In this document: positions 5,822-47,674 of the stretch, in pieces
How the letters are laid out: each line of letters starts with the position of its first letter
Position numbering within the stretch: the stretch's first letter is position 1
NCBI GenBank assembly: GCA_964016885.1
Contig: OZ024743.1
Span: forward strand, 258,168,001-258,232,000
Length of the DNA stretch: 64,000 bases
From: Eledone cirrhosa
Lineage: Eukaryota
Reading direction: 5' to 3'
The notes under the pieces: generated by a model
What the model was told of the DNA's origin: nothing
Databases searched by the model: none
Seen by the model: the letters and a program-made list of their open reading frames with translations, nothing else
Made by a program: the position numbers and the translations under genes

Positions 5822-6162
5822 GGAGGCACATGGCTTAGTGGTTAGAGCATTGGGCTTGCAATCGAAAGTTTGTGAGTTCAATTCTCAGACCGGGTGATGT
5901 GTTGTTTCCTTGAGCAAGACACTTTATTTCACATTGCTCCAGTTTACTCAGCTGTAGAAATGAGATGATAGGGACTGGGGTCTCTATCATTCCACTACAA
6001 AGTGGTCGTGGAGGTGCCACACCAAAAAAGCACCCAGCACTCATTGTAAAGGAGGTTGGTATTAGGAAGGGCATCCAGCTGTAGAAATCAAGCCAGAATG
6101 AGTTCCCGTCCCACCCTTGCAAGCAGGGAAAAAGCGGACGTAAAATGAGATGATGATGATGA
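5822..6162 (+). mobile_element. tRNA-derived SINE, family B, with RTE-derived 3' tail
   Basis: A box TGGCTTAGTGG, B box GAGTTCAATTC, CCTTGAGCAAGACACTT core. The tail AGGAAGGGCATCCAGC...(GAT)n is shared with the RTE 3' ends in this window. Confidence 0.85.
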
Positions 6163-45684: not shown

Positions 45685-45744
<60 letters not shown>

Positions 45745-45778
45745 TCTATATATATATATATATTCTTTATATATATAT

Positions 45779-45841
<63 letters not shown>

Positions 45842-45844
<3 letters not shown>

Positions 45845-45952
45845 TGAGATTCGACAGGACTAGAACTGTTTCATTCTTTAGAAATCATCAGGAATCAGAT
45901 TCCTGATGATTTCTAAAGAATGAAACAGTTCTAGTCCTGTAGAATCTCATCT
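45842..45952. ncRNA. Palindrome of two back-to-back type I hammerheads (minus 45848-45896, plus 45898-45946)
   Basis: gattc-CTGATGA-tttctaaagaat-GAAA-cag(ttctagtc)ctg-T[A/C]-gaatc on each strand; 55-bp arms with a 1-nt spacer. Confidence 0.8.
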
Positions 45953-46029
45953 ATATTAAAACTTTTATACTCTGCAATGTATTGAGTACCTTACTTACTG
46001 TGGTTACCACCGACTCAACCCGGAATAAC

Positions 46030-46440
<411 letters not shown>

Positions 46441-46605
46441 GGGATAACAAAATATCATTATAGGTAATCCAGTTAGAGGTTTTGAATACTTATTATTATG
46501 AATAGTTTTAGTGTACGGCGTTGTTTGACTCAACAAGAGGTTTACGTAAATGACGAGTTTAGGATTTCACTTGTATTCCTATGTAAGTTATCTTGGAGTA
46601 GTAAC

Positions 46606-46932
46606 ATTGAGAAAGTGGAGAATAACATGGTCAACAGTACAAAAAAAAAGGGATTTATTTACAGTCTGACAATTGTTTCTCTGATAAAGTTGTCTATAAA
46701 TTGCTGAACACTATAAGCAGTGCCACTCAATTTCAAATACGATGCTAGCTCGATCAGATCATCATCAACAGTTCCTGATGATCTCATCGAGCTACCATCA
46801 TATTCGAAATTGAGTGGCACTGCTTATAGTGTTCACCAATTTTTAGACAACTTTATCAGAGAAACAATTGTTAGACTGTAAATAAATCCCCTTTTTTGTA
46901 CTGTTGACCATGTTTTTCTCCACTTTTTCAAT
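46606..46932. repeat. About 160-bp-arm palindrome with a degenerate hammerhead core at the axis
   Basis: Arms meet near 46765-46775. CTGATGA at 46775, GAAA at 46806, then a long stem III-like hairpin. Confidence 0.75.
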
Positions 46933-47674
46933 TTTATATATATATCAACTAGAAATTGATTGACATACATATATATATATATATCTAAAATAAACATGAA
47001 ACAATCACAGAGAATAATTTGTAAAATTATGTAAGCACACACAACCAGGTAGGTAACTAATTAAAGTTTAACTAGAACTTTAAAAATGGATACCTTATAA
47101 ATTGACTAATCTTCCTTGTATATATTTCATTAAAGAAATATATTTCACCATTAATCGATCGGTAAACCACAGTAGCCAAATCCGTATTTTCAACAAGGGA
47201 GAAGATCTAACTATCTATGTTTACACAGCAAATTCAAATCTGCGAATGACTAGCAGCACGTGTTGCATTTTTCAAAAATACACACATCGTACCAGCTTTA
47301 TCCCAGTGGCGTGAATAGGGTTATTGACAATTAGAAATAGCAGCCGCGTCCTTTCAACTAAGTTAGCTCTAATTAAGGGGCCGTGTATATATCCAAAATT
47401 AAATTAAGGGTGTCATGTCAGAGAGACATGCGCCATATCCACCGTAGAATATGCTCCAAGATTCCAATGAATAGATCCTATTCATTGCTCTCACCACCTC
47501 CGCCCAAGATTTTCGTGGTCTACCGCTACTGCGTCTTCCTTCTACTGGGATTTTTTGGCACTTCTTTACCAACGGTCATACTCCATGCACATCATATATC
47601 CATACCATCTCAGCCTTCTCTCCTGCACACCACAACTTATCCCTCTTGTACCCAGTTTCTTTCTCAACTCGTTT

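What the first reader, a model, noticed from the sequence alone, without database searches (positions are those of the whole stretch)
45842..45952. Palindrome made of exactly two back-to-back hammerheads, differing only at the cleavage nucleotide
Seen: 55-bp arms with a 1-nt spacer. Each strand reads a complete type I HHR outward from the axis (5-bp stem I gattc/gaatc, 4-bp stem III). The single arm mismatch is position 17 (GUC on minus, GUA on plus), and both are permitted cleavage triplets. Inference: this is a minimal foldback unit. Read-through transcription would sequester the ribozyme in a long hairpin, while transcripts starting at the axis could cleave in either direction. The single mismatch is at a CpG and could be chance.
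Basis: partly seen in the sequence, partly recalled or inferred. Interest (0 to 1): 0.75.

Follow-up and report, generated by a model that had tools for sequence, protein, structure and literature searches.

The report
Hammerhead-like palindrome inside an abundant repeat
This 111-base palindrome is one copy of a repeat found many thousands of times in the genome; each arm carries a conserved hammerhead-ribozyme-like motif that likely descends from retroelement ribozymes and is predicted to be locked in a hairpin in this copy.

Summary
The palindrome is real: 55-nt arms, a 1-nt spacer and one mismatch. It is not a self-contained unit. It is one copy of a ~190-200-bp interspersed repeat at 45842-46030, flanked by (TA)n. 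All 40 scored genome copies are 99-100% identical. Sampling suggests 10^4-10^5 copies across all subfamilies.

In 28 of 30 fetched copies the arms are perfect, with GUA on both. The GUC/GUA difference is therefore a private substitution.

The hammerhead reading holds up at family level. Across five subfamilies (A, B/C, D, E and a ≥193-kb satellite of 78-nt units) the core is invariant. The only varying positions between C3 and H17 are N7, loop 2 and one loop-3 base. Helix I covaries (A-U / C-G / U·G at 2.4/1.4).

The motif is non-canonical. It has a U·U mismatch at 10.1/11.1, and no arm reaches an Rfam hammerhead threshold, although the same genome holds Rfam-positive type I hammerheads. No cleavage or RNA evidence was obtainable.

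Best reading: a head-to-head, hammerhead-variant-bearing non-autonomous element of the retrozyme/Penelope kind, with the ribozyme masked in this copy. It is a new variant of a known kind, of moderate interest.

The parts
45687..45841 (.). (TA)n then (AG)n microsatellite next to the short arm. In this copy it replaces the 11-nt outer extension of the palindrome that most copies have.
   Evidence: TRF finds an AT array at 45687-45824. Sequence read. Comparison with 30 copies.
45842..45896 (-). Short (inverted) arm. The minus strand reads the hammerhead-like domain with H17 = C at 45853, a private T>G change on the plus strand.
   Evidence: 28 of 30 copies have T at this position.
45897..45897 (.). 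Central unpaired nucleotide (A here). In the family it is A or T in about equal shares relative to the body (flip/flop).
   Evidence: 13 A and 16 T among the 29 of 30 copies with an exact centre.
45898..45946 (+). Plus-strand hammerhead-like domain: helix I 5' strand GAUUC, then CUGAUGA, helix II UUUC/GAAU around loop UAAA, GAA, helix III ACAG/CUGU around loop UUCUAGUC, A17 at 45941, helix I 3' strand GAAUC.
   Evidence: Family conservation and helix I covariation.
45947..45963 (+). End of the long arm plus the AT-rich linker (ATATTAAAACT at 45953-45963). In other copies the short arm also ends in this linker.
45964..46030 (+). 3' body of the repeat unit. It includes the block 45977-46006, the second stretch that reads alike in copies of subfamilies A, C, D and E. 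The unit ends ...GGAATAACG(T) at the (TA)n array.
   Evidence: 3' ends abut microsatellites in 125 of 144 copies.
46031..46439 (.). (TA)n array of about 209 units flanking the 3' end of the element.
   Evidence: TRF.

Best explanation
The palindrome at 45842-45952 is one copy of a very abundant, microsatellite-flanked interspersed repeat in which two copies of a conserved hammerhead-like RNA domain are joined head to head. The domain is likely a true but non-canonical type I hammerhead of the retrozyme/Penelope-element kind, and in this copy it would be sequestered in a long hairpin.

Shown:
- The repeat unit in the window is 45842-46030: short inverted arm, 1-nt centre, long arm, AT-rich linker, and a conserved 3' body that ends at (TA)n.
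- There are at least five subfamilies, plus non-palindromic and tandem (78-nt satellite) forms.
- The hammerhead core is invariant between subfamilies. Variation sits at N7, loop 2 and loop 3. Helix I covaries.

Inferred:
- The family spreads through RNA as a non-autonomous element. It keeps a constant 3' end at (TA)n/(CA)n while the opposite end is variably truncated, and forms that lack one terminus still amplify.
- The ribozyme acts, if at all, in unmasked contexts such as single units or tandem arrays, possibly as a dimer through the self-complementary CUAG in loop 3.
- The head-to-head palindrome is a by-product of the integration or copying mechanism, as in Penelope-like insertions.
- The window copy itself is most likely an inert insertion. 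Its GUC/GUA difference is a private mutation.
For: Repeat nature:
- All 40 scored genome places match the 111 nt at 99-100%, out of 1313 first-look candidates.
- 8735 contigs of run X1 lie on the element at >=80% likeness.
- About 5 elements occur in ~132 kb of sequence not fetched for them, which extrapolates to ~10^5 copies.

Unit anatomy.

Hammerhead constraint:
- Between the majorities of the five groups, 6 of the 39 columns from C3 to H17 vary. They are N7, the four loop-2 bases and one loop-3 base, all among the 13 positions a hammerhead leaves free. Hypergeometric p is about 5e-4 (my arithmetic).
- On 150 arms, 79.7% of cells pair, against 36-55% with slid partners. The covariation score is 0.084 against 0.061 shuffled (0 of 500 shuffles reach it).
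- Pair 2.4/1.4 shows CG 48, AU 31, UG 23. Pair 2.6/1.6 shows AU 80, GC 14, GU 7.
- In 8735 contigs of X1, the only letters differing at >=5% inside the domain are in loop 2 and at helix I position 1.4 (table 3).

Other points:
- Helix I is 6 bp in the A, tandem, D and E forms. That matches the 6-bp helix I given for canonical metazoan type I hammerheads (passages of PMC4209133).
- A U.U mismatch at the base of helix II has a precedent that cleaves in vitro. Axolotl HHR_Amex2 cleaves 22% in 1 h as a monomer, and more as a dimer (passages of PMC7229834).
- The same genome holds Rfam-positive type I hammerheads (19 of 74 scored matches over the cut-off). They sit in short elements that also end at (TA)n and occur as inverted pairs.
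- It also holds many RT + GIY-YIG reading frames.
- Tandem form: 2101 pattern matches against 0 for the control, and an array of >=193 kb on C28.
- 3' ends abut microsatellites in 125 of 144 copies.
- Masking: -86.3 kcal/mol for the hairpin against -3.6 for the hammerhead fold.
Against: - No Rfam hammerhead model reaches its threshold. There was nothing at gathering in the window. There was nothing at E<=10 on the palindrome, on a D arm or on the non-palindromic unit. The only hit was Hammerhead_HH9 at 14.6 bits (gathering 52, E 0.8) in the tandem array, and in another register.
- 10.1/11.1 is unpaired (mostly U.U) in 145 of 150 arms. G10.1-C11.1 is described as highly conserved (PMC4209133).
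- Helices II and III never covary. They are simply invariant, as is most of loop 3, so part of the pattern could be block conservation for another reason.
- A second block, 45977-46006, reads alike in the copies of all subfamilies I looked at and has no ribozyme reading.
- The single arm does not fold into the hammerhead as its MFE, and it is no more stable than shuffles (z about 0).
- In the 634 satellite monomers, core positions vary about as much as their neighbours (about 0.02 against 0.03). Inactivating variants such as U16.1>C in 46 of 634 and G8>A in 31 of 634 are propagated.
- Many old copies carry CUGGUGA.
- No link to an autonomous element was found.
- No target-site duplications could be read.
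- No direct evidence of RNA or of cleavage exists.
- The 150 arms were fetched with family members as queries and anchored on helix III, so they are related and partly preselected.
Confidence: 0.7

Rival explanations
1. It is a foldback or MITE-type DNA transposon, and its long inverted repeats match the hammerhead consensus by chance. On this reading the arms are conserved because they serve transposition, not RNA catalysis.
For: - The oldest subfamily (C) is a ~290-bp palindrome over its whole length.
- The window holds another, unrelated long palindromic element at 46602-46936.
- My rough estimate is that a motif of this quality, without a helix II requirement, turns up by chance about 0.02 times per 64 kb. 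That is hundreds of times in 3 Gb (my arithmetic).
- Rfam models do not recognise it.
- Helices II and III show no covariation.
Against: - Forms that lack one terminus (A, B, D, E-short) have still amplified to near-identical copies.
- Non-palindromic units exist.
- One end is constant and the other is variably truncated.
- Variation between subfamilies falls only on hammerhead-free positions, and helix I covaries within an arm. Arm symmetry does not require either.
Confidence: 0.15
2. The 111-nt palindrome is itself a minimal functional unit: transcripts starting at the axis run outward in both directions, and each carries an active ribozyme.
For: - Both strands read the full motif outward from the axis.
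- In D copies the asymmetric centre gives a good helix I on one strand only, so the centre does matter for the fold.
Against: - The repeat unit is larger and asymmetric.
- The junction lies elsewhere in other members. In L182 it is 435 nt upstream.
- No promoter or RNA evidence was obtained.
- The position-17 difference is private to 2 of 30 copies.
Confidence: 0.06
3. The element's main product is a long hairpin RNA, a source of small RNAs or a substrate of double-strand-RNA enzymes. On this reading the hammerhead likeness is a relic.
For: - The hairpin is near-perfect and very stable (-86.3 kcal/mol).
- The arms are kept identical in 28 of 30 copies.
- There are generic matches to miRNA-precursor models, up to 42.9 bits.
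Against: - All miRNA matches lie far below their gathering scores of 60-90, and any long hairpin would give them.
- The reading does not explain the invariant core, the variable loop 2, the helix I covariation or the tandem and non-palindromic forms.
Confidence: 0.05
4. The palindrome is an assembly artefact (foldback chimera).
For: None was found. Long palindromes are a known assembly hazard (general knowledge).
Against: - The same palindrome lies at 40 of 40 scored places with different flanks.
- It is also present in contigs of runs labelled as three organisms from three studies.
Confidence: 0.01

Closest known systems
Metazoan non-LTR retrozymes: tandem repeats with type I hammerheads (Cervera & de la Pena 2020, PMC7229834, passages read; Li, Clavereau & Pollet 2026 preprint 10.64898/2026.07.22.740005, abstract and passages read)
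   Same: - Type I topology.
- Non-coding and AT-rich.
- Very high copy number, with monomers and multimers dispersed and a large tandem array.
- Coexistence with Penelope-like elements.
- A U.U mismatch at the base of helix II, as in axolotl HHR_Amex2.
   Different: - The main form here is a head-to-head palindrome, not a tandem.
- The tandem unit is 78 nt, against the ~170-400 nt reported.
- Helix III is long (4 bp with an 8-nt loop).
- Rfam models miss it.
- Expression, cleavage and circles are untested.
Hammerheads in the pseudo-LTRs of Penelope-like elements, and the PLE insertion architecture (Cervera & de la Pena 2014, PMC4209133; Craig et al. 2021, PMC8557442; passages read)
   Same: - Dual hammerheads on opposite strands close to each other.
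- Inverted head-to-head copies.
- Partial tandems.
- Insertion bias for (TA)n/(CA)n, so that target duplications cannot be read.
- RT + GIY-YIG frames are plentiful in this genome.
   Different: - Here the two motifs abut (0-5 nt apart), against the 100-700 bp reported.
- The inverted copy keeps the junction and loses its outer end, the opposite of a 5'-truncated inverted copy.
- There is no coding partner and no shared sequence with the PLE frames examined.
- Helix III is not minimal.
Rfam-positive type I hammerhead elements of the same genome
   Same: - Short non-coding elements that end at (TA)n and often lie as inverted pairs.
- The CC-CUGAUGA box.
- Loop 2 begins UAAA.
- GAAAC.
   Different: - They have G10.1-C11.1, a 4-bp GC-rich helix II, a 2-bp helix III and GUC, and score 33-38 bits.
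- Ours has U.U, an AU-rich helix II, a 4-bp helix III and GUA, and stays below threshold.
- Likeness beyond the core is weak. The alignment scores z = 5-7, but the core itself drives that score.
Schistosome Sm-alpha SINE-like hammerhead repeats and the hammerhead arms of avsunviroids (recalled, not read here)
   Same: - A ribozyme carried by a short, very abundant non-autonomous repeat.
- The ribozyme is inactive in the most stable fold of the full RNA.
   Different: No palindromic DNA organisation of this kind is recalled for either. This is recollection only.

Membership tests
Hammerhead ribozyme, type I | Conserved core: C3 U4 G5 A6 N7 G8 A9, G12 A13 A14, A15.1-U16.1, and H17 not G | tested here: met
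   Read directly in the window and found by my descriptor. The core is invariant in the majorities of the five subfamily groups, and only N7 varies.
Hammerhead ribozyme, type I | Three helices around the core, open at helix I | tested here: met
   Helix I is 5-6 bp (6-8 in D and E). Helix III is 4 bp. Helix II is 3 bp plus one mismatch.
Hammerhead ribozyme, type I | G10.1-C11.1 pair at the base of helix II | tested here: not met
   This pair is unpaired (mostly U.U) in 145 of 150 arms. A cleaving precedent with U.U exists in axolotl HHR_Amex2 (PMC7229834).
Hammerhead ribozyme, type I | Score at or above the gathering threshold of an Rfam hammerhead model | tested here: not met
   No hit. HH9 scores 14.6 bits against a gathering score of 52. 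In the genome-wide RF00163 search none of the 74 scored matches showed this family's motif; I printed 20 of them.
Hammerhead ribozyme, type I | Helices supported by compensatory changes | tested here: inconclusive
   Helix I is supported: pairs 2.4/1.4 and 2.6/1.6 change on both sides. Helices II and III are invariant, so they say nothing. The sequences are related, so the shuffle control overstates support.
Hammerhead ribozyme, type I | Self-cleavage 3' of H17 | not testable with these tools
   No RNA holder was listed, and the runs are held only as contigs.
Metazoan non-LTR retrozyme | Tandem repeats with a type I hammerhead in each unit | tested here: inconclusive
   Met by the array on C28 (>=193 kb, 128 units per 10 kb) and by 8 units on C1. 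Not met by the window copy or by the bulk of the family, which are palindromic single insertions.
Metazoan non-LTR retrozyme | Units of ~170-400 nt expressed as linear and circular RNAs | tested here: not met
   The tandem unit is 78 nt in 484 of 634 monomers. Expression is not testable here.
Penelope-like element (or its non-autonomous derivative) | RT plus GIY-YIG reading frame, or sequence shared with such an element | tested here: not met
   The element is non-coding. PLE-type frames exist elsewhere in the genome. The 12 loci examined share only microsatellite with the family.
Penelope-like element (or its non-autonomous derivative) | Insertion into microsatellites; inverted and tandem copy arrangements | tested here: met
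   125 of 144 3' ends are followed by (TA)n, (CA)n or the like. Head-to-head junctions appear, and tandems. The geometry of the truncated arm differs from the published scheme.
MITE / foldback DNA transposon | Both terminal inverted repeats needed and present; target-site duplication | tested here: not met
   Subfamilies A, B, D and E lack the outer ~77 nt on one side, yet they are abundant and young. Target-site duplications cannot be read in microsatellite flanks.
miRNA precursor families (Rfam hits MIR8001, mir-5365 and others) | Score at or above the gathering threshold | tested here: not met
   The best hit is 42.9 bits against a gathering score of 90. These are generic hairpin matches.

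The most novel reading that the evidence does not exclude
This is an unrecognised hammerhead variant, with U.U at 10.1/11.1, a long helix III and a self-complementary loop 3, invisible to the Rfam models. It is catalytically active and has colonised this genome in two forms. One is a head-to-head palindromic retroelement of about 10^5 copies, in which the mirror arm acts as a built-in off-switch. The other is a satellite of at least 193 kb made of 78-nt units. Those would be the shortest tandem hammerhead units known, and able to yield ~78-nt circular RNAs.
Probability: 0.3. Interest if true: 0.7.

Novelty: new variant of a known kind. Interest (0 to 1): 0.45.

Why it matters
- If the motif cleaves, covariance-model scans miss a whole hammerhead lineage that may outnumber the recognised hammerheads in the same genome. 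Ribozyme counts in animal genomes would then be underestimates.
- The family offers a natural series in one genome: a single unit, a tandem of 78-nt units and a perfect head-to-head palindrome. That series would allow a test of how genomic context switches a self-cleaving ribozyme on or off.
- The family could also show how Penelope-type integration creates inverted copies.
- About 10^5 near-perfect hairpins would be a large source of double-stranded RNA and of palindrome-driven instability next to (TA)n arrays.
- If the motif does not cleave, this is an ordinary abundant repeat with a relic motif.

Tried and rejected
- **RNA evidence.** No RNA holder was listed. All six runs are Logan contigs of unknown kind, so starts and ends cannot be seen.
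- **Folding.** MFE folding does not discriminate. The A arm does not fold as a hammerhead. The D arm gives helices I and III of the motif in its MFE, with z = 0.18. The Rfam-positive control from the same genome does not give its hammerhead as MFE either. I did not rely on folding.
- **Selection in the satellite.** The per-position variability of 634 monomers gave no clear difference between core and non-core positions.
- **Homology to the Rfam-positive element.** Local alignment scored 21-23 against shuffles of about 10-11 (1 of 500 and 0 of 500 shuffles as high). The shared core, which is why the motif was picked, drives the score. I treat it as a hint only.
- **Autonomous partner.** The 12 GIY-YIG loci share only microsatellite with the family. 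The long E form has a 435-nt leader and then TG/TA-rich sequence, with no reading frame.
- **De novo snap-back model.** I considered de novo snap-back synthesis at each insertion as the origin of the palindrome. The asymmetric centre inherited by D copies argues against it as the sole mechanism, and the question is left open.
- **Centre flip/flop.** I take this to be loop inversion by template switching in long palindromes. That rests on general knowledge and was not tested.
- **Earlier findings.** There was nothing near the window or by sequence. One remote note turned up by words.
- **Taxon.** The organism was not determined. The tools give coded names only.
- **Term error.** One search failed on a mis-formatted search term and was repeated.

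Full report
**1. The observation**

The palindrome exists as described. Its arms are 45842-45896 and 45898-45952: 55 nt, 98% complementary, with one base between them. As RNA it folds into a single hairpin of -86.3 kcal/mol. Shuffles give -23.7 +/- 3.1 (z = -20).

On the plus strand the right arm reads as follows:
- GAUUC
- CUGAUGA
- UUUC-UAAA-GAAU
- GAA
- ACAG-UUCUAGUC-CUGU
- A (45941)
- GAAUC

The left arm reads the same on the minus strand, except for C at position 17 (45853). Helix II has only three pairs plus a U.U mismatch at 10.1/11.1. The second motif follows automatically from the first in a palindrome.

**2. It is a repeat, not a unit of its own**

- The window lies in a genome of about 3.0 Gb (C4:258168001-258232000).
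- All 40 scored matches to the 111 nt are 99-100% identical and have different flanks. They come from 1313 first-look candidates.
- In the 30 fetched copies, 28 have perfect arms and T at the 45853 position. The GUC/GUA difference is therefore private to this copy and one other. These 30 are the best-scoring hits, so they lean towards near-identity.
- In 18 of 30 copies the palindrome runs 11 nt further on both sides.
- Every copy continues on one side only into the same ~77-nt body, which ends at (TA)n.
- In the window the element is therefore 45842-46030. Its outer 11 nt on the short-arm side are replaced by (AG)n/(TA)n, and a 409-nt (TA)n array lies beyond the body.
- Contigs of four public runs hold the sequence: 8735 contigs in X1 at >=80% likeness, 340 in X4, 2 in X5 and 16 in X6. 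The runs carry three coded organism labels.
- In about 132 kb of sequence that was not fetched for this family I found about five elements. That extrapolates to about 10^5 copies. The estimate is rough, and part of the sample is itself TA-rich.

**3. The family**

Searching with diverged copies found in the flanks gave these subfamilies:
- **C** is old, with copies about 80-86% alike. The whole ~290-bp element is a palindrome.
- **B** has one arm cut short at (CT)n(TA)n.
- **A** is the window's subfamily and is young.
- **D** and **E** are further subfamilies.

Related forms also exist:
- A tandem form has 2101 pattern matches, against 0 for the reversed control. It fills C28 from about 30,496,687 to beyond 30,690,000 with 128 units of 78 nt per 10 kb. 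It starts inside an A element. A second array of 8 units lies on C1.
- Non-palindromic units exist, such as L181, which has a leader, one arm and the body.
- A long E form has a 435-nt leader. In L182 it is itself joined head to head at a different point.

Three regularities hold across the family:
- The 3' end is constant and is followed by a dinucleotide repeat in 125 of 144 distinct copies: 95 TA, 28 CA, 1 TG and 1 CT. None was seen within 75 nt in 17, and it appears only later in 2.
- The other end is variably truncated.
- The short arm ends in the AT-rich linker.

**4. Is the hammerhead likeness more than chance?**

By itself the motif is not convincing:
- My rough estimate is about 0.02 chance matches of this quality per 64 kb without a helix II requirement. 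That makes hundreds per genome.
- Rfam finds nothing at gathering.
- Rfam finds nothing at E<=10 on the palindrome, on a D arm or on the non-palindromic unit.
- There is one weak Hammerhead_HH9 match (14.6 bits, gathering 52) in the array, in a different register.
- The single arm is no more stable than shuffles, and its MFE is not the hammerhead.

The family comparison changes the picture. I aligned 150 arms: 26 A, 35 B/C, 33 E, 31 D, 15 others and 10 array units. They were drawn at random from 233 distinct non-array arms and 264 array arms.
- Between the majorities of the five groups, 6 of the 39 columns from C3 to H17 vary. They are N7 (U, or A in E), all four loop-2 bases (UAAA, CUUC, UCAC, AUCU) and one loop-3 base.
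- All six lie among the 13 positions that the hammerhead consensus leaves free. Hypergeometric p is about 5e-4. This is a post hoc calculation of my own.
- Helix I differs between subfamilies yet stays paired. It reads AGAUUC/GAAUCU in A and the tandem, and AGCUUC/GAAGCU in D and E. In B/C it is a form with a U.G pair or a bulge.
- The count of structure pairs finds 79.7% of cells paired, against 36-55% for slid partners.
- Its covariation score is 0.084, against 0.061 +/- 0.004 in shuffles (0 of 500 reach it).
- Pair 2.4/1.4 has three pair types (CG 48, AU 31, UG 23). Pair 2.6/1.6 also has three (AU 80, GC 14, GU 7).
- This pairing lies within an arm, so palindromic symmetry does not impose it.
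- The same picture comes from 8735 contigs of X1. Inside the domain, only loop 2 and position 1.4 show other letters at >=5%.
- The loop-3 change in E lengthens the self-complementary core of loop 3 from CUAG to ACUAGU. That would favour the dimeric extended helix III described for metazoan hammerheads (my reading of the sequence; principle from PMC4209133).

Several facts count against:
- Helices II and III and most of loop 3 are merely invariant, so they give no covariation.
- 10.1/11.1 is unpaired in 145 of 150 arms.
- A second block, 45977-46006, reads alike in the copies of all subfamilies I looked at.
- In 634 satellite monomers the core varies about as much as its neighbours, and inactivating variants have been amplified.
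- Many old copies carry CUGGUGA.
- The aligned arms are related to each other and were anchored on helix III.

The U.U mismatch is not disqualifying. [quoted passage not shown] It cleaves 22% in one hour as a monomer, and much better as a dimer (passages of PMC7229834).

**5. Context in the same genome**

- RF00163 finds bona fide type I hammerheads: 19 of 74 scored matches are over the cut-off, and the best scores 37.8 bits.
- They sit in short non-coding elements that also end at (TA)n and often lie as inverted pairs a few hundred bases apart.
- GIY-YIG domains are very numerous: 150 of 150 scored matches are over the cut-off, from 10,595 candidates.
- Two of the three frames I translated read as RT motif, zinc-finger-like linker and GIY-YIG, the architecture of Penelope-like elements.
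- Published descriptions of PLE insertions fit the family's behaviour. They mention 5' truncation, partial tandems, an adjacent inverted copy, bias for (TA)n, and some elements that hold only a hammerhead core (passages of PMC8557442). They also mention dual hammerheads on opposite strands 100-700 bp apart (PMC4209133).
- There are differences too. Here the inverted arm keeps the junction and loses its outer end. I also found no sequence link to a coding element.

**6. How it most likely works**

Shown:
- The anatomy of the element.
- Its abundance.
- The pattern of conservation and covariation.
- The tandem and single-unit forms.

Inferred:
- The family is a non-autonomous element that spreads through an RNA copy primed at its constant 3' end in (TA)n/(CA)n.
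- The hammerhead-like domain is a real, non-canonical ribozyme lineage. It can act where it is not masked, that is in single units, in the tandem array, and perhaps as a dimer.
- The head-to-head palindrome arose through the integration or copying mechanism and is then inherited.
- In palindromic copies such as this one, the mirror arm would outcompete the ribozyme fold (-86.3 against -3.6 kcal/mol).
- The window copy is most likely an inert insertion.

Cleavage itself is untested.

**7. Verdict**

- The likeness to a hammerhead is very probably not chance, at about 0.75-0.8.
- That it cleaves is about even odds or slightly better.
- That this 111-nt stretch is a minimal functional unit is unlikely.

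It is a new variant of a known kind: hammerhead-bearing non-autonomous retroelements of animals. Whether repeat libraries for this organism already list the family could not be checked. My paper searches turned up no description of abutting head-to-head hammerheads or of a 78-nt tandem unit. They covered only the held library, and I did not see the supplements.

Noticed in passing
family-wide; window 45897: The centre of the palindrome occurs in both orientations relative to the 3' body, in about equal shares. In subfamily A it is 13 A to 16 T. In D it is 14 GGAGCTTCC to 11 GGAAGCTCC. In A the state looks unlinked to a body polymorphism. This is flip/flop of a hairpin loop in copies that are otherwise about 99% alike.
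   Followed up: partly
G000 C28:30496687 to beyond 30690000 (L132-L137); C1:350200250-350200830 (L138): A satellite of at least 193 kb is made of 78-nt units, each consisting of the hammerhead-like arm plus a 30-nt linker. It starts inside an A-type element at an inverted junction. A separate 8-unit array lies on another contig.
   Followed up: partly
L111-L130, e.g. L126:1450-1850: Rfam-positive type I hammerheads (33-38 bits) have a GUCC/GGAC helix II and a 2-bp helix III. They sit in short non-coding elements that end at (TA)n and often lie as inverted pairs 240-470 nt apart.
   Followed up: partly
L182:590-1660: This is a giant palindrome of the long E form. Two copies of a 435-nt leader plus the hammerhead-like domain are joined head to head around an 11-nt spacer. 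In six other loci the leader is preceded by about 1 kb of TG/TA-rich sequence and a 23-nt inverted repeat.
   Followed up: partly
window 46602-46936: An unrelated long palindromic, MITE-like element lies here. Its arms are 46643-46769 and 46771-46897 (127 nt, 92% complementary, 1 nt between), extended by a second pair at 46602-46646 and 46892-46936. It ends next to TA repeats.
   Followed up: no
window 5831-5888: A partial tRNA match (Rfam 29.6 bits, model positions 8-63) lies here. Similar tRNA-like pieces recur in the flanks of other loci, for example L026 and L188. It is probably a tRNA-derived SINE.
   Followed up: no
L199-L210 (e.g. L205, L210): Reading frames that read as RT motif, a zinc-finger-like linker and GIY-YIG fit Penelope-like elements. 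There are 10,595 first-look candidates for GIY-YIG in the genome, and all 150 scored matches are over the Pfam cut-off.
   Followed up: partly
old B/C copies, e.g. L035, L040, L042, L047, L054, L057, L085: CUGAUGA is repeatedly changed to CUGGUGA, or to the mirror TCACCAG on the other arm, and sometimes in one arm only. It is a recurrent A>G change inside the hairpin, and its cause is unknown.
   Followed up: no
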